A stretch of DNA of 22,363 nucleotides from an uncultured Candidatus Electrothrix sp. (GTDB taxonomy: Bacteria > Desulfobacterota > Desulfobulbia > Desulfobulbales > Desulfobulbaceae): the NCBI GenBank assembly GCA_965603655.1, contig CBFDDU010000038.1:1-22363 (forward strand), in the 5' to 3' direction. This document shows positions 274 through 22,363 of this stretch, piece by piece. The position numbers and the translations under genes were made by a program. Every line of letters starts with the position of its first letter. Position 1 is the first letter of the stretch. The notes under the pieces were generated by a model. The model searched no databases, was not told the origin of the DNA, and saw only the letters and a list, made by a program, of their open reading frames with translations.

Positions 274-1209
274 ATGAAGGATATTCATGATCGTTTACAT
301 GACCGTATGCGCGGTGCAGTTCTTGCTTCTGCTCTCGGCGATGCCTTTGGTGCACCATATGAGGGTGGTATCACAGAGCGGTTGATTTGGGGAGTATTGG
401 GGAGACAGAGCGGTAAACGTCGCTGGACAGATGATACGCAGATGTCTGTTGATGTTATAGAATCCCTCTTGGCCTGTAAAAAAGTGGAGCAGAATGATCT
501 TGCTCGGCGTTTTGCCCACTCCTACAGGTGGTCACGGGGCTACGGGCCGGGGTCAGGAAAGCTGCTGAAACGTATTCGTCAGGGAGAGCGCTGGCAGATT
601 GCCAATAGAACTGTGTATCCCAATGGTTCTTTCGGTAACGGTGGTGCTATGCGAGCTGCCCCCATAGGGCTTTTTTATGGAGCAGAGCGTGAACGAAGAC
701 TGGTTCGGGCTGTTCGGGACGCAACGATTGTTACCCATGCCCATCCTGTCGGTCAGGACGGAGCTGTGGTTATCGCCCTGGCGACGGCCTTGGTTTGCCT
801 GGACTATCCTATGCGGGAAATTCTTAAGCGACTTCGTCTCCATATTCAAACTGTCGAATTGCAAAGCAGACTTGCCGTTGCGGAAAGATTGCTGCGTGCA
901 GACCATCTTGTGTTACCAAAACAAGTGGCGAGCGAGCTGGGTAACGGCATCAGGGCCAAGGACTCCTGTGTTACGGCGCTCTCTATCGGGCTTGCCTTGC
1001 GAGAGGCTCCTTTCTCCCATCTGTTAGCATATATTCGTGAAGTTGGCGGTGATACCGATACCATCGGGGCTATGGCCGGGGCTATCTGGGGTGCGGCCTG
1101 TGGATATCGGCAATTGCCGGAAGATTTGTTGAAACATCTTGAGCAGCGTCAGTATTTGGAAGAGTTGGCACATCGTTTTGCTGACGCAGCTGTTCAGGGA
1201 CGTTTTTGA
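274..1209 (+). CDS. ADP-ribosylglycohydrolase family protein (DraG/ARH-like)
   Basis: Tracked ORF is 259..1209. ATG at 274 is preceded by GGTGGGA. The motifs ALGDAFGAPYEG, WTDDTQM and the C-terminal GGDTDTIGAMAGAIWGA are the metal-site signatures of this family. Confidence 0.85.
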   Translation: MKDIHDRLHDRMRGAVLASALGDAFGAPYEGGITERLIWGVLGRQSGKRRWTDDTQMSVDVIESLLACKKVEQNDLARRFAHSYRWSRGYGPGSGKLLKRIRQGERWQIANRTVYPNGSFGNGGAMRAAPIGLFYGAERERRLVRAVRDATIVTHAHPVGQDGAVVIALATALVCLDYPMREILKRLRLHIQTVELQSRLAVAERLLRADHLVLPKQVASELGNGIRAKDSCVTALSIGLALREAPFSHLLAYIREVGGDTDTIGAMAGAIWGAACGYRQLPEDLLKHLEQRQYLEELAHRFADAAVQGRF

Positions 1210-2036: not shown

Positions 2037-2282
2037 TTTTTACGCTGTTCGTCTGCCCCCGAGAATGCCGCTCAGTCCGATCCATCAGAGCAAGTAAAAA
2101 AAATATAAGCTATGCAATCATCGGTTGTAACAAGTTGTGTGATAGAGTATTCTTGATCTGTGTTAGATGATGTATTCTTTTTTTATCAGATTTCAGGGGA
2201 ATATCCGATGGAAAATAGATAACAGGTCACGGGGACACAATAAACTTTTTTATTGTTGTTACAAACAGGGAATGTGAGGAGG

Positions 2283-3371
2283 ATGAAAACAGTGAAACTA
2301 AAATTTTTGGCACAGGTAACTTTTTTATTATTGTTATCAGTCTGTACCGCTCAAGCAGCGAGTACACTAACAGTAATTGGGCGTCATCCGTTTTATAAGC
2401 CCCCCCTCAAGTCAATGGATGACCTCAAAAGTATGGTGCAGAATCAACAGACTGCTATCATGGAGGGATTGCAGAAAGCTGGTACTCCTGAGCTGTATAC
2501 ACCGCTCATGCAACAGTTTCCGCAGGCACAAATTCAGCAAGTTGAATATCAACCTGGTGTGACTTTTCATTGGATGCTGTTCAGGCCAAACGGAGTTGGT
2601 CCGGTTAAAGCTGCCAAGGATCTCACTTGGGGTGGTAAAGCAGCGTTAAGCGGCTATGAATTTTTTATCGATGCAGGCGATAAACGTTACATCTTTGTAG
2701 TGCCTCTCTTCTGCGGCAATTTGGCCCTGAAAGAAGTTGTGCATATTGTAACAGTTCCGGGTCCCGAGCGGATTGTTGAGAAAATTGTTCCTGGGCCGCC
2801 TCAAATTGTTGAAAAGATTGTTGAGGTTCCTGGTCCCGAGCGGATTGTTCCTGGTCCCGAGCGAATCGTAGAAAAAATGGTTGAAGCCCCACCGCAGTGT
2901 TGCCCGCCTTGTGTCTATCCGGTTCGTTTCGTGGCTGATATGGGCTACCTTCGTCTTTCTGATCCGGCTGATTTCGGTTTCGGGAGGATAGGCGTAGAGT
3001 ATGCGTTTAACCAGCGTCTCTCCTTTCTCGGTATGATTGGTGGAGCTGCAAAAGCTGATGGAACTGATGGCGATGATGCCTGGTTGGTTGACTTTATGCT
3101 TCAGTATAACCTGTTCTTCCTGCAAGTTGGTGATGCATGGAACCCGGTCTTCCTGGGATTCGGTCTCGGTGGCTGGATGTCTAACGGTGATGACGATATT
3201 GATTCAGAAGATAGCGATATTGATATCATTGCCCAGGTTGGTGCCCAGATTTTCGGTCATCCAGATAGCTTCAATACCTCAGTTTTCTTTGAAGCGCGTT
3301 CAGGAATCGATGAGACCGATAAGCTGTCTCAGTACGGTCGCTTTGGTGCGGGATTACGTTTCCGCTTCTAA
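2283..3371 (+). CDS. secreted protein: N-terminal domain, Pro-rich repeat linker and C-terminal OMP beta-barrel
   Basis: Tracked ORF is 2253..3371. The signal peptide MKTVKLKFLAQVTFLLLLSVCTAQA|A begins at ATG 2283, with GAGGAGG immediately upstream; in-frame GTG 2274 and TTG 2253 are alternatives. The C-terminus GAGLRFRF is an OMP signature and the last ~150 aa are rich in G/F/D strands. Confidence 0.7.
   Translation: MKTVKLKFLAQVTFLLLLSVCTAQAASTLTVIGRHPFYKPPLKSMDDLKSMVQNQQTAIMEGLQKAGTPELYTPLMQQFPQAQIQQVEYQPGVTFHWMLFRPNGVGPVKAAKDLTWGGKAALSGYEFFIDAGDKRYIFVVPLFCGNLALKEVVHIVTVPGPERIVEKIVPGPPQIVEKIVEVPGPERIVPGPERIVEKMVEAPPQCCPPCVYPVRFVADMGYLRLSDPADFGFGRIGVEYAFNQRLSFLGMIGGAAKADGTDGDDAWLVDFMLQYNLFFLQVGDAWNPVFLGFGLGGWMSNGDDDIDSEDSDIDIIAQVGAQIFGHPDSFNTSVFFEARSGIDETDKLSQYGRFGAGLRFRF
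2754..2885 (+). repeat. in-frame tandem repeats encoding VPGPERIVEKIV-type units
   Basis: The protein reads VPGPERIVEKIV PGPPQIVEKIVE VPGPERIV PGPERIVEKMVE. At nucleotide level, cctggtcccgagcggattgtt is followed directly by cctggtcccgagcgaatcgta. Confidence 0.85.
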
Positions 3372-13018: not shown

Positions 13019-13648
13019 TTACGGGCAACAAGGCTCAGGAGGACAGTAAGCTGGTTCCGGCGGTGGACAGGGTTTTGGATCTGGCAACGGCGGAGGACAG
13101 TAACTGCTGTTATACCTAGGCATAGAGCGAGTTGTCGTTGTGTAGGACCTTGTTGCCGGTGTAGTTATTGTTGAGGGCACAATAAACCGCGATGTCGGAG
13201 TACTGACCACAGATGGAATCGTAATTCTTGTCGCCGGAGTGGTGGTGACGGTTGACGGATAACGATACCGTGTGCTGACGTAGCGTGATGGTGAAACGTA
13301 CGTGCTTCTGCTTATTGTCCTTGGCGCGTAGGTCCGCCGCGTTGTATATCTTTTTACACTTGGTGACGAAGAGCGTACCACCGGGGTGTATGTCCGAGTA
13401 ACTGGTGCATATGTGCGTACCACCGGGGAGTATCTACGTACAGTCGGTGAGGAAGAGCGAACAATCGGCGTATAGGTCCGTCGTACTGAACGACCTGCTC
13501 CGCTCCCGGTGTGGGTCGAAGTGGAAACGGATTGGGTTGTTGAGGTATATGTATGGACTGACCGTGAGGTCGGCCCGCTAGAATATCCGCATGCGCTCAA
13601 TAAACCGGCAGCAAGCACAGGTGTTAATAAGAATGTTGTCATCTTCAT
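13019..13648 (-). CDS. repeat-rich basic lipoprotein with Cys/Pro-rich C-terminus (LP3)
   Basis: Tracked ORF is 13019..13801. ATG 13648 (MKMTTFLLTPVLAAGLLSA|C) has AGGAGA 10 nt upstream. The body consists of degenerate R-T-Y-x-P-V-V-R-S-S-S-P-S-V-K/R-R-Y repeats. The tail is CPPPLPDPKPCPPPEPAYCPPEPCCP. Confidence 0.7.
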   Translation of the reverse strand: MKMTTFLLTPVLAAGLLSACGYSSGPTSRSVHTYTSTTQSVSTSTHTGSGAGRSVRRTYTPIVRSSSPTVRRYSPVVRTYAPVTRTYTPVVRSSSPSVKRYTTRRTYAPRTISRSTYVSPSRYVSTRYRYPSTVTTTPATRITIPSVVSTPTSRFIVPSTITTPATRSYTTTTRSMPRYNSSYCPPPLPDPKPCPPPEPAYCPPEPCCP

Positions 13649-13692
13649 GAGTTCTTCATCTCCTGAAATTATATAACGTTTTTCATACGGTG

Positions 13693-13860
13693 TTAATAGG
13701 AGGGATATGTCCCTCCGTCGTAATAGGTGGAGGTTCGGACGGTGTGTGTCGAGGTCGAGTAGGTATCGATAGTCCGTGATGTTGGTGCTGCGTAGTAGCA
13801 CCCGCTCAGTATAAGAGCGGCAAGAGATAATACTATAAATAAGAGTCCTCGTTTCTTCAT
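13693..13860 (-). CDS. 55-aa lipoprotein sORF not in the ORF track (LP4)
   Basis: My own translation of the minus strand gives MKKRGLLFIVLSLAALILSG|CYYAAPTSRTIDTYSTSTHTVRTSTYYDGGTYPSY*. The lipobox is LSGC. The mature N-terminus (PTSRTIDTYSTSTHT) resembles that of LP3 (PTSRSVHTYTSTTQSVSTSTHT). It stops 44 nt before the LP3 start. Confidence 0.6.
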   Translation of the reverse strand: MKKRGLLFIVLSLAALILSGCYYAAPTSRTIDTYSTSTHTVRTSTYYDGGTYPSY

Positions 13861-15616: not shown

Positions 15617-16558
15617 TTATTGGGGCGCGAGCGCAGTTTGTATGGCCTCGGCCATTTGCCTGAGGTTCTGTTCGATATCTTCCGCCAAAGGATCCAGTTC
15701 CACAAGCCTGCCCTTGATAGCCTGGGCCACGGTTTGGGCATTTTTTCGATCAAATTGGGGCTGGACAAAGAGGATTTTCACCTTATCCGCCTTGGCTTTT
15801 TTGACAAGCGCATAGAGCTGCTTCGGCGAAGGGGCTTTTCCTTCGATTTCCACTGCCTCTTGGTGCAGATCATAGGCATGGGCAAAATAACCGAATGCGG
15901 GATGGAAAACAAAAAAGGTTGCGCCTCGGAATGGGGCAAGCTGTTGCCCAAGTTCCTGCTGGAGCCGGGTCAACCGTTCTTTGAGGGCCTTGAGATTTTG
16001 TTGATAGACTGCTGCATGTTCTGAATCAGCCGTTATCAGGGCCTCTGTCATGGCGGAGGCCATTTTTTCTACATTGCGCGGGTCAAGCCAGAGATGCGGG
16101 TCCGCGTGCTCCAGCTCCGCTTCCTCATGCTGGTGCTGATCGTGCCCCCTATGATCCTCTTTCTTTTCTTCGTGATGATGATGGGCAACCAGAGGAATTC
16201 GTGTGATGTCCGTTGTTACATCAATGAATTGCGGCCCGCTGTTGGAGTGCTCTTTGTTGCTTATTTTTCGTGCGATCTCCCGTTCAAACTGCATCCCAAT
16301 TGTAAAATAGAGGCGGGAACGAAAAAGTGAGGTTATTTTCTCCGGGGTTGGCTGGTAGGTATGCGGCTCCTGTCCCTTGTCGAGCAGAACATGGGCGCTG
16401 ACAAGGTCACCACCTAGTTGCTCGACCAGCCATTTTTGCGGGGCAATGGAGACAAAGACGGGCAGGGGCTCTGTACTTGCCGGAAGATTTGCCGGAAGCA
16501 TTGCGGTTGTTAACAGGAAAAAACAGCTCAGCAGGAGGGAGTATTTTTTAGTTTGCAT
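15617..16558 (-). CDS. znuA: periplasmic zinc-binding protein with His-rich loop
   Basis: Tracked ORF is 15617..16630; ATG 16558 gives the signal peptide MQTKKYSLLLSCFFLLTTAMLPANLPAS. Cluster A-I SBP blocks are present (VFVSIAPQKW, EPHTYQPTP, DPHLWLDP). The loop HHHHEEKKEDHRGHDQHQHEEAELEH is typical of Zn-specific ZnuA. The exact start is uncertain. Confidence 0.85.
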   Translation of the reverse strand: MQTKKYSLLLSCFFLLTTAMLPANLPASTEPLPVFVSIAPQKWLVEQLGGDLVSAHVLLDKGQEPHTYQPTPEKITSLFRSRLYFTIGMQFEREIARKISNKEHSNSGPQFIDVTTDITRIPLVAHHHHEEKKEDHRGHDQHQHEEAELEHADPHLWLDPRNVEKMASAMTEALITADSEHAAVYQQNLKALKERLTRLQQELGQQLAPFRGATFFVFHPAFGYFAHAYDLHQEAVEIEGKAPSPKQLYALVKKAKADKVKILFVQPQFDRKNAQTVAQAIKGRLVELDPLAEDIEQNLRQMAEAIQTALAPQ

Positions 16559-16604
16559 ATTGTATGAGCTTGAAAAGGTTGGGGTCACGATCATCGTAAC
16601 TTTA

Positions 16605-16883
16605 TCATTCTTTAGCTTCTGCGTGGACAAACTGTTTCACAAAATTTCTGATTGCCGCTGAGCTGAGAAAGAATTTGCTTAGCCTCTGTTCTCCGGCCTG
16701 TAGGGTTGGAATCATTGTGACCCTCTGTCGTAGAGCTTGTCCCGGATTGGTCAGGATGTCCACCGACGCAATCTTGAGCTCGGGGAACTCCCGCTGGAGA
16801 TCGGTCAGCACCCGGCGGACCAGTAGGCAGCGGGGTCAAAGGGCTGAGGTGTAAAAAATAATGCCGGTATCAGGTTTCTTCAT
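16605..16883 (-). CDS. thioredoxin/glutaredoxin-fold selenoprotein candidate (U-P-R-C motif; TGA at 16836..16838 read as Sec)
   Basis: The same frame as tracked ORF 16605..16811, extended upstream, reads ATG(16883) MKKPDTGIIFYTSAL-TGA-PRCLLVRRVLTDLQREFPELKIASVDILTNP...VTMIPTLQAGE...*. The TGA sits exactly where the first Cys of a CPxC motif belongs. The cis-Pro IPTL motif is present, and a SECIS-like hairpin follows the TGA. Confidence 0.7.
16790..16834 (-). other. candidate bacterial SECIS hairpin immediately 3' of the in-frame UGA
   Basis: In the mRNA, CCCGCUG (nt +2..+8 after UGA) pairs with CAGCGGG (+40..+46). An inner helix GGUC/GACC plus GC/GC closes the apical loop CGGGU, which begins 22 nt after the UGA. 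Confidence 0.5.
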
Positions 16884-18030
16884 CAGGTGGAGGCTCGGGT
16901 TTAGGAGAAGGGGTGAGGGGAGCGATCGGGTCCGGATCTGTTTCGCTCGTGTCAAAATTCGTATCAAGATGCACGGTGCGTTGAGGAAAGGGTATCTCAA
17001 TTCCGTTCTCTTTAAAAGCGATATGGATCATTTTGAGGAGATTATGGGTTTGCAGCCCCCGCTGAGCAGGTTCTTCGACCCAGACCAGCAGCTGAAGAAA
17101 AATGGATGATTCACTGAGGTTGCGCACCCTGACCCTCGGTTCCGGTTTTGTTTCCAGGGCGGTATTTGCCTCAGCAACCTGCAAGAGAACTTTTTCCACC
17201 TCCCGAAGGTTGCTGTCATAACTTACGTTCACATCAATACGGATTCGAAAGCTGACTTCCGGGGCGGATTGATTGATAATCTTGGTGGTGGACATGATGG
17301 AATTGGGTACCGTGATCATCACGTCATCTCTGGTTTTGATCTTGGTGGAACGGATGCCCAGCTCCGTCACTTCGCCCCGTTCGCCGGTCCCGAGAATAAT
17401 ATAATCTCCTACTTTATAGGCGGCATCGGTGAACAGGGCAATGCCGCCAAAGAAATTGGCCAGGGTGTCTTTAGCGGCTAGGGCTATGGCGATACCGACA
17501 ATACCGGCTGAAGCGAAGAGGGGGGTCAGATTGACTTTCCAGATAATCAGCGCCCAGATGATCCCGATAAAGAGGAGGATGATCCGCGAGATGTTCTTCA
17601 GCATGTAGAACCTGGTCTTGTCGAACTTGCGCAGGGCCCATTGGGTATTATTCTCATTCATGACCGTGATCTCCCGGATCAGGGAGACCCACCAGACCGC
17701 CAGAACCAGGGTTTTGATCACATTGGGCAGAACGGTATCCCAGGGCGACGGAAATGTTGGTTCCAGGAGAGTGGCGTGGAGGAGGCCGAGGAGAAGGACC
17801 GACAGGACCGACGGACGACGGATAAAGCGAACAAAATGTTCATCCACATCAAAACTGGTTCGGGTGGCAACCGGGTACAAGATTCTGCTGATAATAATAT
17901 CAGCCGCCTTGCTCAGGATGATATAAAAGCAGATAACAGTGAAGCGTTGCCCAAACTGATACTGGCCGAGATCAGGAAGGGCGGTGCTGAACCAGAGGGT
18001 GAAGGCTTGCGGTAAGATGCTGACGTCCAT
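16870..18030 (-). CDS. mechanosensitive ion channel, MscS family
   Basis: 386 aa. N-terminal TM helices, then the MscS core LANFFGGIALFTDAAYKVGDYIILGTGERGEVTELGIRSTKIKTRDDVMITVPNS. Its last 14 nt overlap the start of the selenoprotein candidate. Confidence 0.9.
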   Translation of the reverse strand: MDVSILPQAFTLWFSTALPDLGQYQFGQRFTVICFYIILSKAADIIISRILYPVATRTSFDVDEHFVRFIRRPSVLSVLLLGLLHATLLEPTFPSPWDTVLPNVIKTLVLAVWWVSLIREITVMNENNTQWALRKFDKTRFYMLKNISRIILLFIGIIWALIIWKVNLTPLFASAGIVGIAIALAAKDTLANFFGGIALFTDAAYKVGDYIILGTGERGEVTELGIRSTKIKTRDDVMITVPNSIMSTTKIINQSAPEVSFRIRIDVNVSYDSNLREVEKVLLQVAEANTALETKPEPRVRVRNLSESSIFLQLLVWVEEPAQRGLQTHNLLKMIHIAFKENGIEIPFPQRTVHLDTNFDTSETDPDPIAPLTPSPKPEPPPDEET

Positions 18031-19657: not shown

Positions 19658-22363
19658 ATGAGCCTTTGCCCTATCAAATGCCCGATGAAATTTGTCGCCC
19701 TTTGTCTGCTGTCGTTGACTCTTTTTGCTGCTGAAACCTTTGCTGCCTCCCTTGATACTGGCTTTGGTGATAACGGGAAGGTTGCTGTGGATCTTGGATC
19801 ATACGGTGATCAGGCCAATGCCGTGCTGGTGCAGCCTGACGGCAAAATCTTGGTGGGCGGGTCCTCCTCCAATACCGCTGATCTGGACTTCATGTTTTTT
19901 CGGCTCCTTGCTGACGGCTCTCTGGATAGCGAGTTTAATTTTGACGGCACAGTTTCCACTGCAGTCGGCTCCCATGATGACGAGGTTTTTGCCCTGGCCC
20001 TTCAGGAGGACGGCAAGATCCTCGCGGCGGGCTACAGCTCGAATAACGGAAGTCGGGATTTTGCTCTGGCTCGTTATAATAGCGACGGGTCGCTTGATCG
20101 GGAATTCGGCCTGGAAGGCATGGTGGTGACCGCTGTCAGTGATTCTGATGACGAGATTACCGGTGTGGCTGTGCAACCGGACGGTAGGATCCTGCTGACC
20201 GGTACCGCTTTGGGCGATGAAGGACGGGTGGTGGTTCTGTCTCGGTACCAGGGTAACGGAACACCGGATTTTACCTTTGCCGATGAGGGCTTTACCCTGA
20301 GTGCTGTGGGCACGGATGCCCGTGCTGAAAGCCTGCTCTTGACCGAAGAGGGACGTATTCTTGTTGCTGGTACCTATCGGGAACAGGACAAGGCTGCGCT
20401 CATGGTGCTTGGTTACGATGAAAATGGCGATTTGGACACCTCCTTTGGCTATGAGGGCGTGACCGTGCCTTTGGACGGTACTGTGCCCAGTGCGGGCTAT
20501 GGTATGGCGATCCGGGATGACGGCAGTATTCTGGTTGCTGGCTCTGTCGGAAAAGACGGAACACGGGATGGGGCGCTGTTCCTCTTTGGTGAGGACGGGT
20601 TGCCAGACAGGACCTTTGGAGATACGGGGGGTCTGGTCACGGATGACGAAGATGATACGATCTTCTACGATGTGCTGGTGACCGAGGAAATGATCGCGGC
20701 GACCGGTGTGACAGTTGGCGAAGACGGGATGCGTGAGGCCTTATTGGTCACCTATGCAAAAGGGGACGGCGCGAACAGTGAGCAGCTCTTTCAGCAGCAG
20801 GTGGCAGGTTCCTCAGAAGAGGCAGCGGATGGAACTGACGCAACTGATGAAGATTCGGAAGAAACAGAGACCGTTGCTCAGATTGTGACCACGGAAGTGG
20901 ATAATGAAGAAGATTATGCCTTTTCCCTTGCTGCGGCTGATGCAGGCAGTGTGGTTGTGGTCGGTGCCAGCGGTTCCCAGGAAATCGCCAGTGCTGCGGT
21001 CCGTAAATATACTATTTTTCAGTCAAGTGTTACCGGTTCCTCCTGGAGCACAGCCACGGGTAATGCCTCTGTCCTGACCGGTGCAGCCCAGGACGTGACC
21101 CGGACAACCGCTCTTATTCCGGGAGAGGTTCTTACCGGGCTGGGCACGGTGACGGAGCGGGGGGTGGTGTTCAGTATTGATCCTCTTCCTGTTTTGCAAG
21201 GCAGTGAGAGTACCACCGATGATACGACGGACGACACGACCACGGACGATACCACCGATGATACAACAACCGATGAAACCACGACGGATGAAACCGGGCC
21301 GAGCATAACCAGCAGTACTGAGAGTTCTTTTTCCACAACAGAGCAGGCTATTTTGGTCGTCTCTACGGATGAGAATGCAACCTGTCGGTACAATGCTCGG
21401 TATGACGAGGATTATGGGGAAATGGGGAGCATTCTTTCCTCTTCCTTCGGTACTGGGCATCATGTTGTCTTGGGCACGCTTGCGGAAGGGGATTACACCT
21501 TTTACGTACGTTGTAAGGATGAATCAGGGAATATAAGCACGTCAGGGACTGAGGTGACTTTTGCTGTCTCTGCGGATGAGACTGGAGCGCCGGTACGTAG
21601 TGATTTGTCTCCCAGTGGTACGGTTTCAAGTACTTCTGTTACTCTGAGCTTGAGTACAGATGTTGCTGCGACCTGTAAATATACAACGTCTGATTCGGGG
21701 ATGGATTATAACGATATGAAGAACGAGTTCGATACAACGGGTGGAACAAGCCATTCAGAGTCCGTGTCGAGTCATATTGGCGGGGAATCTTATATATACT
21801 ATGTACGGTGCAAAAGCACTTCAACAGGAGCTGAAAATACCAACAGTAGCGAGATCTCTTTTACTGTTGATACCACCCCTCCAGCTGTCACAGACACTAC
21901 GGATGCTACGTTTACCTCAAGTGAGTCTGTTATCTTATCTGTAACAACAGATGAAGAAGCGACATGTAAGTATGACGATACAGATGATACCTATGACTCT
22001 ATGGTAAACAAGTTCTCCGCAAGTTCAGATGGAATGACACATTCTGCGGACATAGGAATTCTGGCGGAAAATACAGAACATACTTATTATGTCCGCTGCC
22101 AAGACACCGCATCTAACCAAAATTTATCAAGCACTGAGATTTATTTTGAAGTTACTGCTCAACTTGGTACTGAAAACTCCACAGACTTCTATGCAGCTCA
22201 AGGTTTTCCTGCTGCTGATATGCGGGACATTTTCAGCATGAGCCTGGAAACCGTAGGCAACCTGTTCGTCAGCACCGCTTTCGCCCAGGATGATACAGAC
22301 ACTAGCGATAGCACCACCACCGACACCACTGACGAACAGGTTGCCTACGGTTTCCAGGCTCAT
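19658..22363 (+). CDS. large secreted delta-60-repeat (beta-propeller-like) surface protein, 3'-truncated by the window edge
   Basis: My own translation finds an open frame from ATG 19658 (or ATG 19685, MKFVALCLLSLTLFAAETFA|A) to the window end, 902 codons with no stop. It is not in the ORF track because it lacks a stop. It has six ~57-aa repeats of the form LDxxFGxxGxV...VQPDGKILxxG...F.L.RY..DGS. Confidence 0.85.
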   Translation, partial: MSLCPIKCPMKFVALCLLSLTLFAAETFAASLDTGFGDNGKVAVDLGSYGDQANAVLVQPDGKILVGGSSSNTADLDFMFFRLLADGSLDSEFNFDGTVSTAVGSHDDEVFALALQEDGKILAAGYSSNNGSRDFALARYNSDGSLDREFGLEGMVVTAVSDSDDEITGVAVQPDGRILLTGTALGDEGRVVVLSRYQGNGTPDFTFADEGFTLSAVGTDARAESLLLTEEGRILVAGTYREQDKAALMVLGYDENGDLDTSFGYEGVTVPLDGTVPSAGYGMAIRDDGSILVAGSVGKDGTRDGALFLFGEDGLPDRTFGDTGGLVTDDEDDTIFYDVLVTEEMIAATGVTVGEDGMREALLVTYAKGDGANSEQLFQQQVAGSSEEAADGTDATDEDSEETETVAQIVTTEVDNEEDYAFSLAAADAGSVVVVGASGSQEIASAAVRKYTIFQSSVTGSSWSTATGNASVLTGAAQDVTRTTALIPGEVLTGLGTVTERGVVFSIDPLPVLQGSESTTDDTTDDTTTDDTTDDTTTDETTTDETGPSITSSTESSFSTTEQAILVVSTDENATCRYNARYDEDYGEMGSILSSSFGTGHHVVLGTLAEGDYTFYVRCKDESGNISTSGTEVTFAVSADETGAPVRSDLSPSGTVSSTSVTLSLSTDVAATCKYTTSDSGMDYNDMKNEFDTTGGTSHSESVSSHIGGESYIYYVRCKSTSTGAENTNSSEISFTVDTTPPAVTDTTDATFTSSESVILSVTTDEEATCKYDDTDDTYDSMVNKFSASSDGMTHSADIGILAENTEHTYYVRCQDTASNQNLSSTEIYFEVTAQLGTENSTDFYAAQGFPAADMRDIFSMSLETVGNLFVSTAFAQDDTDTSDSTTTDTTDEQVAYGFQAH
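19751..20770 (+). repeat. six tandem delta-60-type protein repeats
   Basis: The repeats start at LDTGFGDNGKV, LDSEFNFDGTV, LDREFGLEGMV, PDFTFADEGFT, LDTSFGYEGVT and PDRTFGDTGGL. Each contains a (Q/E/D)xDG(K/R/S)IL core. Confidence 0.8.
21212..21294 (+). repeat. Thr/Asp low-complexity linker (TTDDTTDDTTTDDTTDDTTTDETTTDET)
   Basis: Near-periodic acc/acg-gat/gac codons. The antisense strand yields the artefactual VVSSVVVSS ORF 21019..21393. Confidence 0.85.
21295..22160 (+). repeat. three tandem ~95-aa modules with a conserved Cys pair (A-T-C-[KR]-Y ... Y-[YF]-V-R-C-[KQ]-[DS])
   Basis: Module cores: LVVSTDENATCRY...GDYTFYVRCKDESGN; LSLSTDVAATCKY...GESYIYYVRCKSTSTG; LSVTTDEEATCKY...TEHTYYVRCQDTASN. 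Confidence 0.7.

What the first reader, a model, noticed from the sequence alone, without database searches (positions are those of the whole stretch)
16605..16883. Unannotated thioredoxin-fold selenoprotein: in-frame UGA at the first position of a U-P-R-C redox motif
The ORF track reports only a 68-aa fragment that begins at a GTG. Extending the same minus-strand frame upstream gives ATG(16883) MKKPDTGIIFYTSAL - TGA(16838..16836) - PRCLLVRR, which then runs into the tracked ORF. If the TGA is read as Sec, the 92-aa product is a complete minimal Trx/Grx fold. It has beta1 (IIFYTS) and a redox motif UPRC exactly where CPxC normally sits. It also has beta2 (LKIASVDI), the cis-proline motif (MIPTL) and a C-terminal helix. 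A stop codon landing by chance on the catalytic Cys position, with intact fold elements on both sides, is unlikely. Sec-containing Trx/Grx-like proteins are already known in deltaproteobacteria and clostridia, so the family is not new. However, standard gene callers would truncate or miss this gene.
Basis: partly seen in the sequence, partly recalled or inferred. Interest (0 to 1): 0.8.

Follow-up and report, generated by a model that had tools for sequence, protein, structure and literature searches.

The report
Unannotated selenocysteine mini-thioredoxin in cable bacteria
A small thioredoxin-like gene in this cable-bacterium (Candidatus Electrothrix-like) DNA almost certainly uses an in-frame UGA to insert selenocysteine at its catalytic site; public annotations cut the gene short, but Sec-containing thioredoxin-fold proteins are a well-known kind, so this is mainly an annotation fix.

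Summary
On the minus strand, ATG 16883 opens a 92-codon frame whose codon 16 is TGA (16838..16836). The frame ends at TGA 16607..16605.

- All eight independent Electrothrix / Ca. Desulfobulbus rimicarensis loci keep TGA at this codon.
- 34 genome homologues and about 120 database homologues have Cys there (C-P-R-C).
- A TGA-specific metagenome scan raised the total to 55 distinct U-P-R-C proteins, in at least three lineages that also contain Cys forms.
- The 15 codons before the TGA are under coding selection.
- A hairpin 13 nt after the UGA meets all four published bacterial SECIS criteria. It is the most conserved stretch of the gene and shows G-C/A-U covariation.
- In the same columns, Cys forms pair only at background level (41% against 82%).
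- The fold is a minimal thioredoxin fold (closest solved relative MJ0307), with U/C at the N-terminus of helix 1.
- TGA is an ordinary stop in 8 of 17 window genes, so the code is not reassigned.

Not shown: selA/B/C/D in an Electrothrix genome, and selenium in the protein.

Verdict: a real, mis-annotated selenoprotein gene. It is a new member (an uncurated subfamily) of a known kind, of modest interest.

The parts
16605..16883 (-). Complete coding sequence of the 92-aa U-P-R-C mini-thioredoxin (ATG 16883..16881; stop TGA 16607..16605, then TAA)
   Evidence: The full-length frame is conserved in 8 related loci. Third-position excess of substitutions occurs both before the TGA (58/53/108) and after it (185/94/368).
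16836..16838 (-). In-frame TGA, proposed Sec codon (residue 16)
   Evidence: TGA in 8 of 8 independent Electrothrix/rimicarensis loci. It aligns to TGT/TGC in 34 genome loci and to Cys in 120 database proteins.
16827..16838 (-). Redox motif U-P-R-C (residues 16-19)
   Evidence: C/U16, P17, R18 and C19 are invariant in alignments A3 and A6. 118 of 120 Cys forms are exactly CPRC. The motif lies at the N-terminus of helix alpha1 in the model.
16802..16822 (-). SECIS-like hairpin: UGGUC-c-GC [CGGGU] GC-u-GACCG, starting 13 nt after the UGA; apical loop at 16814..16810
   Evidence: The hairpin meets the bSECIS criteria quoted in PMC13188914. It is the most conserved 21-nt stretch of the gene. 82% of cells are paired, against 22-46% in slid controls and 41% in Cys forms.
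16707..16709 (-). Codon of the invariant cis-proline (P59, in M-I-P-T-L)
   Evidence: Invariant in A3, A6 and A7. It aligns to the cis-Pro region of MJ0307 and Mt0807.
16870..18030 (-). Upstream MscS-like mechanosensitive channel gene. Its TGA stop (16872..16870) lies 8 nt after the ATG codon of the selenoprotein gene (14-nt overlap from ATG 16883), so the two are probably co-transcribed and translationally coupled.
   Evidence: Pfam MS_channel domains 1st, 2nd and 3rd. The same arrangement occurs in L001, L002, L004 and L006.
15617..16630 (-). Downstream znuA (the first of znuA-znuC-znuB). The true start is probably ATG 16558.
   Evidence: Pfam ZnuA, E = 7e-67. Synteny with L001 and L002. It is not conserved in L003, where LpxK takes its place.

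Best explanation
Window 16883..16605 (-) is a functional gene for a 92-residue minimal thioredoxin-fold oxidoreductase. Its attacking active-site residue is selenocysteine, in the motif U16-P-R-C19.

During translation, the UGA at codon 16 is recoded by the standard bacterial route. The hairpin 13 nt downstream, with apical loop C-G-G/U-G-N, acts as a SECIS element that recruits SelB.GTP.Sec-tRNA(Sec). The product would then cycle between a selenolate/thiol state and a selenenylsulfide state to reduce disulfides or similar oxidised substrates.

In Electrothrix the gene is probably co-transcribed and translationally coupled with an MscS-like channel gene, and it lies just upstream of znuABC. 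In other lineages the gene context differs, so the physiological partner is unknown.

Shown: the conserved TGA; Cys in homologues; coding constraint on both sides of the TGA; a Sec-form-specific conserved hairpin; the Trx fold.

Inferred: SelB-dependent decoding; redox chemistry; operon coupling.
For: 1. Sequence as described.

2. TGA at the same codon in 8 of 8 related loci that were recovered through the downstream protein only.

3. Substitutions in codons 1-15 are biased to third positions (58/53/108), as in the rest of the gene.

4. Cys (TGT/TGC) at that column in 34 genome loci from Desulfobulbales, Anaerolineae, Campylobacterales and others, and in 120 database proteins, 118 of them CPRC. 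Invariant residues are S13, C/U16, P17, R18, C19 and P59.

5. A TGA-specific metagenome scan gave 49 more loci and 55 distinct UPRC proteins. At least 3 mixed Sec/Cys clusters exist. For example, L085 (U) is 90% identical to Desulfoluna limicola L018 (C).

6. Hairpin evidence:
- It is retained in all Electrothrix-type loci, and every substitution falls in the loop or bulge or is wobble-compatible.
- It is the most conserved 21-nt stretch (0.90 against 0.73). Third positions vary in 3 of 8 hairpin codons against 62 of 66 elsewhere, p = 4e-4.
- In 39 distinct Sec forms, 82% of cells are paired against 22-46% in slid controls. The covariation score exceeds 500 of 500 shuffles. Pair 23:31 is G-C 33, A-U 4, G-U 2 and is never broken.
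- Cys forms in the same columns pair at 41-43%. The loop G[G/U] occurs in 40 of 40 Sec forms against 1 of 13 Cys forms.
- The published bSECIS criteria (PMC13188914) are all met: loop 5 nt, G then G/U, 21-nt spacing, MFE -7.8.

7. Fold: profile against PDB gives MJ0307 (1fo5, E = 3e-16) and Mt0807 (1nho, E = 5e-12), both end to end. The AF2 model of Cys homologue P0020 (40% identical to the window protein) has pLDDT 92.3. Foldseek top hits are all thioredoxins, TM about 0.8.

8. TGA is a normal stop in 8 of 17 window genes.

9. Ca. D. rimicarensis DR15, which carries the TGA form (L008), is reported to have all Sec-biosynthesis genes (PMC7117923). Desulfobulbia include very large selenoproteomes (PMC12013277).
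Against: - No selA, selB, selD or tRNA-Sec could be examined for any Electrothrix genome. None lies in the window or the held loci, and cable-bacteria papers and supplements never mention them.
- Rfam has no match at the hairpin, even at E <= 10.
- RNAalifold alone did not recover the hairpin on the broad 39-sequence set. The base of the stem (pairs 18:36 and 19:35) is weakly kept outside Electrothrix.
- The whole-region fold z-score is unremarkable, -0.76.
- Some Sec forms of other lineages (L080, L082, L085, L086) gave no hairpin that satisfies the strict bSECIS scan.
- Several features of the 49 metagenomic loci are fixed by the search pattern: the TGA, five upstream codons, P-R-C, columns 31-32 and P59.
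- There is no protein-level evidence.
Confidence: 0.88

Rival explanations
1. Decaying pseudogene. A former CPRC thioredoxin-like gene acquired a nonsense mutation (TGC/TGT to TGA) and is no longer made.
For: A single transversion turns TGC or TGT into TGA. Public annotations treat the locus as a short hypothetical ORF.
Against: The TGA is fixed in 8 of 8 related loci whose proteins are only 64-80% identical to the window's, and it occurs in 55 distinct proteins overall. There are no other stops or frameshifts. Purifying selection acts on both sides of the TGA. A Sec-form-specific hairpin has been maintained.
Confidence: 0.02
2. Two separate products. A 15-residue upstream peptide ends at the TGA, and an independent protein starts downstream, at GTG 16811 or at the Met of PRCM in relatives. 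The hairpin would serve as a translational coupling or attenuation structure.
For: Gene callers choose such downstream starts. The hairpin overlaps the GTG.
Against: The downstream fragment would lack strand beta1 and the whole CxxC motif of a fold that is otherwise complete. The downstream start codon is not conserved: it is GTG, ATG or absent at different positions. Cys-form homologues are continuous through this point. The hairpin is absent from Cys forms.
Confidence: 0.04
3. The UGA is read through, but not as Sec. Possible routes are near-cognate Trp or Cys insertion, or a lineage-wide change of the genetic code.
For: Sec machinery was not demonstrated for Electrothrix. Some bacteria do reassign UGA.
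Against: TGA terminates 8 of 17 confident genes in the window, including this gene and its neighbour. The position is the catalytic Cys column, which is the classic Sec/Cys pair. The downstream hairpin fits the SelB-type bSECIS model. A carrier of the same form has the Sec pathway according to PMC7117923.
Confidence: 0.05
4. Sequencing or assembly error in the window turned a Cys codon into TGA.
For: None specific.
Against: The same TGA appears in independent assemblies from NCBI, JGI and ENA samples.
Confidence: 0.01

Closest known systems
MJ0307 / Mt0807 archaeal mini-thioredoxins (PDB 1fo5, 1nho; NCBIfam TIGR00411)
   Same: They have the same length (about 85 aa). They align end to end with the family profile (E = 3e-16 and 5e-12). 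They share the four-stranded minimal Trx fold, a CPxC motif at the start of helix 1, and the cis-Pro.
   Different: The window protein scores only 24 bits against TIGR00411, whose cutoff is 92.75. The motif is fixed as C/U-P-R-C with an invariant Ser three residues before it. The family is bacterial (Desulfobulbales, Anaerolineae, Campylobacterales and others). Many members have Sec.
SaoT (CD2368 family thioredoxin-like selenoprotein, NCBIfam NF040730; bioRxiv 10.1101/2022.07.06.499078)
   Same: SaoT is also an MJ0307-like protein of about 85 residues that occurs in Sec and Cys forms. Its Sec forms were also truncated in databases at the UGA.
   Different: SaoT motifs are UPTC, CAUC, CPTC and CPCC, and it sits in the nine-gene sao operon. 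This family is U/CPRC, has no sao neighbours, and gives no NF040730 hit at E <= 1.
Sec-containing thioredoxin (PF00085, UxxC) and glutaredoxin (PF00462, UxxC), as listed in PMC13188914
   Same: Both are Trx-fold proteins with a UxxC motif in which Sec replaces the attacking Cys. The expected selenenylsulfide redox chemistry is the same.
   Different: Classical Trx proteins are about 105 aa with an extra N-terminal beta-alpha unit and a WCGPC motif. The window protein is just under the PF00085 cutoff (23.2 against 23.5) and well under PF00462.
Thioredoxin-like selenoproteins Sec.1 and Sec.2 (PF13192) in PMC13188914, Table 1
   Same: They fall under the same Pfam neighbourhood. Thioredoxin_3 is the precomputed domain for many Cys forms of this family.
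   Different: Their motifs are CxU and UxC, not UxxC. I could not compare sequences because the accessions are not retrievable with these tools.
Bacterial SECIS consensus (bSECISearch model; E. coli fdhF type)
   Same: The element is a stem-loop inside the coding region directly after the UGA. It has a small apical loop with G followed by G/U in its first positions, 16-37 nt spacing, and MFE <= -7.5. All of these are met.
   Different: There is no primary-sequence similarity to the E. coli elements and no Rfam family match. The stem contains a C.U mismatch in Electrothrix that becomes a G.U pair in relatives.

Membership tests
Bacterial selenoprotein gene (Sec-UGA) | In-frame TGA aligned to a conserved Cys in homologues (Sec/Cys pair) | tested here: met
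   34 genome loci and 120 database proteins have Cys at that column.
Bacterial selenoprotein gene (Sec-UGA) | TGA-containing homologues in other organisms, with coding conservation on both sides | tested here: met
   55 distinct UPRC proteins, and third-position bias upstream of the TGA.
Bacterial selenoprotein gene (Sec-UGA) | bSECIS stem-loop immediately downstream: loop 3-9 nt, G in the first two loop positions, 16-37 nt from the UGA, MFE <= -7.5 (PMC13188914) | tested here: met
   loop CGGGU, spacing 21 nt, -7.8 kcal/mol. The hairpin is Sec-form specific (82% paired against 41% in Cys forms).
Bacterial selenoprotein gene (Sec-UGA) | selA, selB, selC (tRNA-Sec) and selD present in the same genome | not testable with these tools
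   Only 22 kb of this genome is available, and none of these genes lies in the window or the loci. Indirect evidence: DR15, a carrier of the TGA form, has the pathway according to PMC7117923.
Bacterial selenoprotein gene (Sec-UGA) | Selenium incorporated into the protein | not testable with these tools
   This needs 75Se labelling or mass spectrometry.
Thioredoxin-fold superfamily | beta-alpha-beta-alpha-beta-beta-alpha core with CxxC at the N-terminus of helix 1 and a cis-Pro before beta3 | tested here: met
   AF2 model of Cys homologue P0020, pLDDT 92.3. Foldseek top hits are all thioredoxins. P59 is invariant. The window protein was mapped onto the model by a gap-free 40%-identity alignment.
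MJ0307 family thioredoxin (NCBIfam TIGR00411) | Score at or above the curated cutoff of 92.75 bits | tested here: not met
   24.2 bits for the window protein and 25-33 bits for Cys forms.
Pfam Thioredoxin (PF00085), Glrx-like (PF05768), Thioredoxin_3 (PF13192) | Score at or above the gathering threshold | tested here: inconclusive
   The window protein scores 23.2 against PF00085 (cutoff 23.5) and 19.1 against PF05768 (cutoff 26). One Cys form passes PF05768 at 28.1. Precomputed PF13192 hits exist for many Cys forms.
SaoT (NF040730) | HMM match and sao operon context | tested here: not met
   No NF040730 hit at E <= 1 for six representatives. The neighbours are MscS/znuA, hcp, or HDAC/CBS genes, not sao genes.
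Uxx-star / PDO_seleno_TRX selenoprotein models (NF041212, NF047338, TIGR02187) | Score at or above the curated cutoff | tested here: not met
   12-19 bits against cutoffs of 66-185.

The most novel reading that the evidence does not exclude
The C/U-P-R-C mini-thioredoxins form a distinct selenoprotein family that has not been catalogued. No curated NCBIfam or Pfam model claims it, and no motif match appears in the 2026 family table. At least 55 Sec forms are systematically truncated in public annotation. This locus would also be the first documented selenoprotein of cable bacteria. There it is translationally coupled to an MscS-type channel and adjoins the zinc-uptake operon, which hints at a dedicated redox partner at the membrane or in metal homeostasis.
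Probability: 0.3. Interest if true: 0.45.

Novelty: new member of a known kind. Interest (0 to 1): 0.35.

Why it matters
1. Annotation. All six public Electrothrix entries for this gene are N-terminally truncated 'hypothetical proteins' that lack the active site. Dozens of metagenomic relatives must be affected in the same way. A dedicated HMM with a Sec exception would fix this.

2. Cable-bacteria biology. I found no paper or supplement on cable bacteria that mentions selenocysteine. A conserved Sec gene implies that these organisms need selenium and run the Sec pathway, which is relevant to cultivation media and to their redox physiology across steep oxygen/sulfide gradients.

3. Evolution. 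The family is a compact case of repeated Sec/Cys exchange in which the SECIS requirement visibly reshapes the codons and amino acids of helix 1.

None of this changes how Sec decoding or thioredoxin-fold chemistry is understood.

Tried and rejected
- **Rfam.** Searches at gathering threshold and at E <= 10 around the UGA found nothing.
- **tRNA-Sec.** ARAGORN on the window and 67 loci found none.
- **Offline tblastn.** I searched E. coli SelA, SelB and SelD against all held DNA. The only relevant hit was a partial selD-like ORF on L090 (SelD residues 74-210, AIRS N-domain only). It is probably truncated or rearranged and comes from an Anaerolineae-like organism, so I did not use it as evidence for Electrothrix.
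- **Literature on Sec in cable bacteria.** Two full-text searches and the supplements of six papers gave nothing. One large supplement has no annotation text, so its silence is uninformative.
- **Source contig of the window.** It is not on record under the exact products tried.
- **Raw hairpin free energy, Sec against Cys forms.** -10.3 against -5.1, p = 3e-4. I discounted this because GC content differs, and replaced it with the column-wise pairing control.
- **RNAalifold on broad sets.** It did not return the hairpin. A named-structure count with controls was needed.
- **Sec/Cys-pair scan over about 586 kb of held DNA.** Only off-frame artefacts appeared besides this family.
- **Suspected broken gene at 19.6-22.4 kb.** It is an intact gene that runs off the window end.
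- **Third homologous-protein search and the representatives search.** A SelA/B/D query would return only the 120 best hits, and these would not include Electrothrix.

Full report
**1. The observation**

Reading the minus strand gives ATG at 16883..16881, then MKKPDTGIIFYTSAL, then TGA at 16838..16836, then PRCLLVRRVLTDLQREFPELKIASVDILTNPGQALRQRVTMIPTLQAGEQRLSKFFLSSAAIRNFVKQFVHAEAKE. The frame stops at TGA 16607..16605, followed by TAA. The mechanical ORF list contains only the 68-aa GTG-initiated piece, 16605..16811. The ATG overlaps the end of the upstream 386-aa MscS-like gene (16870..18030, Pfam MS_channel domains) by 14 nt. znuA, znuC and znuB follow downstream.

**2. Relatives carry the same TGA**

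A protein search with U replaced by C returned only six hits. All were 65-73-aa 'hypothetical proteins' of Candidatus Electrothrix (cable bacteria) covering about 70% of the query. That is the signature of truncation at a shared stop.
- I fetched their DNA (L001-L006). All six have TGA at exactly the same codon.
- The 15-codon leader is open and conserved: MKKPDTxIIxYTSAL*PRC. The most divergent locus, L005, reads MSETRPTITFYKSAI*PRCM.
- Pairwise differences in codons 1-15 fall 58/53/108 on codon positions 1/2/3. The downstream pattern is the same, 185/94/368. The stretch before the TGA is therefore translated.
- These loci were found through the downstream protein alone, so conservation of the TGA and the leader is not an ascertainment artefact.

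**3. Cys homologues**

A scan of one genome per species with the family alignment gave 37 loci.
- Two have TGA: an Electrothrix MAG, and Ca. Desulfobulbus rimicarensis DR15 (L008, FYKSSI*PRC).
- Thirty-four have the [FY]KSA[LI]-C-P-R-C motif with TGT or TGC at that column (the 37th, L043, is a distant CHLC relative). They come from Desulforhopalus, Desulfotalea, Desulfosediminicola, Desulfopila, Desulfoluna, Desulfogranum, Anaerolineae/Aggregatilineales, Sulfurimonadaceae, Arcobacter, Myxococcales and Spirochaetes. They start only 2-15 codons before the motif.
- In a 22-sequence Sec+Cys alignment the invariant residues are S13, U/C16, P17, R18, C19 and P59.
- A profile search found about 160 more Cys forms. 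Sources name them 'glutaredoxin' or 'hypothetical protein'. Of the 120 listed, 118 are exactly CPRC, and none is recorded with U.

**4. The Sec form is widespread**

I wrote a TGA-specific DNA pattern and validated it on the held loci, where it hit 8 of 8 TGA loci and 0 Cys loci. In the metagenome collection it found 49 stretches. That brings the total to 55 distinct U-P-R-C proteins.
- They include relatives of the Anaerolineae-type and Desulfoluna-type Cys forms. L085 (U) is 90% identical to D. limicola L018 (C).
- Single-linkage clustering gives at least three mixed Sec/Cys clusters. The exchange has therefore happened repeatedly.
- Caveat: in these 49 loci the pattern itself fixes the TGA, the five codons before it, P-R-C, the first two bases of the Leu26 codon, and P59. 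Nothing else is fixed.

**5. The recoding signal**

*In the window.* Directly after the UGA the window folds as UGGUC-c-GC[CGGGU]GC-u-GACCG (16822..16802). The stem starts 13 nt after the UGA, and 21 nt separate the UGA from the loop.

*Electrothrix-type loci.*
- All substitutions in the hairpin fall in the loop or bulge, or are wobble-compatible.
- The hairpin is the most conserved 21-nt stretch of the gene: 0.90 pairwise identity against a mean of 0.73.
- Third positions vary in 3 of 8 hairpin codons against 62 of 66 elsewhere (Fisher p = 4e-4).

*Broad set of 39 distinct Desulfobulbales-like Sec forms.*
- RNAalifold alone did not return the hairpin.
- Counting the named structure gives 82% of cells paired, against 22-46% for partners slid by 1-3 columns. 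The covariation score exceeds 500 of 500 shuffles.
- Pair 23:31 is G-C in 33 sequences, A-U in 4 and G-U in 2, and is never broken. Column 31 is the synonymous first base of a Leu codon (CTG/TTG). It switches to T in the four sequences whose residue 23 codon is AAC or GAC, and in two others where G-U pairing is kept.

*Decisive control.* In the same columns the Cys forms pair at 41-43%, which is background. The loop G[G/U] occurs in 40 of 40 Sec forms but in only 1 of 13 related Cys forms.

*Published criteria.* The published bSECIS criteria are all satisfied: 3-9-nt loop, 4-16-bp stem, G then G/U at the start of the loop, 16-37 nt from the UGA, MFE <= -7.5 (PMC13188914). The window's MFE is -7.8 kcal/mol.

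*Weaknesses.*
- There is no Rfam match.
- The lower stem pairs are weak outside Electrothrix.
- Some Sec forms of other lineages failed my strict scan.
- The raw free-energy contrast between Sec and Cys forms is confounded by GC content, and I do not rely on it.

**6. The code is not reassigned**

TGA ends 8 of 17 confident genes in the window, including this gene and the MscS gene.

**7. The protein**

*Curated models.*
- Pfam gives borderline Thioredoxin (23.2 against a cutoff of 23.5) and full-length Glrx-like matches that span the U.
- In NCBIfam the best model is the MJ0307 family thioredoxin, far below its cutoff.
- The named selenoprotein Trx/Grx models (Uxx-star, PDO_seleno_TRX) score negligibly, and SaoT does not appear at all.

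*Solved structures.* The family profile matches MJ0307 (1fo5, E = 3e-16) and Mt0807 (1nho, E = 5e-12) end to end, motif on motif.

*Model.*
I therefore modelled the Cys homologue P0020, which is 40% identical and aligns without gaps over residues 8-88.
- The model has pLDDT 92.3 and pTM 0.82, with topology b1-a1-b2-a2-b3-b4-a3. The first motif residue lies at the N-terminal cap of a1.
- Foldseek returns only thioredoxins, at TM about 0.8 and about 1.8 Å.

**8. Context and function**

The gene neighbourhood is not conserved across the family.
- In Electrothrix the order is Trm112p-like, MscS, this gene, znuABC. L003 has LpxK downstream instead.
- Cys-form Desulfobulbales place the gene near hcp, a 4Fe-4S protein and a CBS protein. 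Anaerolineae place it after a Crp/Fnr regulator.
- Many Sec-form metagenomic loci have a divergent HDAC/AcuC-like deacetylase, a CBS protein and an ADP-forming acyl-CoA synthetase.

I therefore infer a general small disulfide (selenenylsulfide) reductase rather than a pathway-specific component. In Electrothrix it is probably co-expressed with the channel gene. This part is inference.

**9. Sec machinery**

I could not test this for Electrothrix.
- There are no sel genes or tRNA-Sec in the held DNA.
- No cable-bacteria paper or supplement mentions them.
- Indirect support: the genome paper for DR15, the isolate behind L008, states that all genes for selenocysteine biosynthesis are present (PMC7117923). 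Desulfobulbia also hold some of the largest known bacterial selenoproteomes (PMC12013277; PMC13326102).

**10. Comparison and novelty**

Trx-fold UxxC selenoproteins are a long-established kind. They include Trx, Grx, SaoT, the HUIPC family and others (Table 1 of PMC13188914).
- The nearest analogue is SaoT, another MJ0307-like Sec/Cys family of about 85 aa that was also truncated in databases. It has different motifs and a dedicated operon, and its HMM does not hit this family.
- The C/U-P-R-C family appears to have no curated model and no entry I could match in the review table. I could not compare it with the PF13192 'Sec.1/Sec.2' sequences or with BSepDB.

I therefore file the locus as a new member, probably an uncurated subfamily, of a known kind. 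Its value lies in annotation and in the implication that cable bacteria use selenium.

Confidence that the TGA encodes Sec is 0.88. Interest is 0.35.

Noticed in passing
L009-L015, L017, L024, L041 (0.1-3 kb upstream of the Cys-form gene); L016, L019, L020, L023, L026, L027, L030, L031, L034: In Desulfobulbales the Cys-form family members sit next to hcp (hybrid-cluster protein, Prismane), a 4Fe-4S protein, a Cys-rich YkgJ-like ORF and a CBS-domain gene. In Anaerolineae a Crp/Fnr-type regulator lies about 320-570 nt upstream on the same strand. This may link the family to a nitrosative or redox-stress regulon.
   Followed up: partly
L046, L050, L054, L055, L057, L058, L069, L070, L072, L075, L077, L078, L081, L084, L087-L089, L008: Many Sec-form metagenomic loci have a divergently transcribed HDAC/AcuC-like deacetylase (PF00850) within about 50-170 nt upstream. 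A CBS-domain protein and an ADP-forming acyl-CoA synthetase lie further upstream, an acuABC-like neighbourhood.
   Followed up: partly
L090:142-717 (+), convergent with the UPRC gene at about 660-900 (-): This is a partial selD-like ORF (47% identical to E. coli SelD residues 74-210, AIRS N-domain only). Its N-terminal 30 residues look peroxiredoxin-like. It is probably a truncated or rearranged gene, or an assembly chimera.
   Followed up: partly
window 16811 (GTG); L001 and L005 (Met of PRCM): The start codons that gene callers pick for the truncated ORF lie inside or just before the SECIS-like hairpin and differ between loci. This explains the inconsistent 65-73-aa public entries.
   Followed up: yes
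window 13019..13801 (-): This ORF encodes a 260-aa Ser/Thr/Arg/Pro-rich protein with RTYxPVxR-type repeats and a C-terminal CPPP...CPPEPCCP tail. The homologous region in L001 is only partly conserved (about 80-88% in patches).
   Followed up: no
window 19664..22363 (+), runs off the end: This is a large secreted repeat protein, 81% identical to the 964-aa L001 gene. It has SLD-x-FG-x-GK propeller-like repeats, a Thr/Asp-rich linker and repeated ...TCKY...YYVRC modules. At first it looked like a gene-free region because ORFs that run off the window are not listed.
   Followed up: yes
window 2253..3371 (+): This ORF encodes a signal-peptide protein with tandem PGPERIVEKIV / PGPPQIVEKIV units followed by a beta-barrel-like C-terminus.
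   Followed up: no
L017 (Desulfosediminicola flagellatus IMCC35005): This genome is reported to have the largest known bacterial selenoproteome, 46 genes (PMC12013277). It nevertheless carries the Cys form of this family, so Sec use in the family is not simply a function of how Sec-rich the host is.
   Followed up: no
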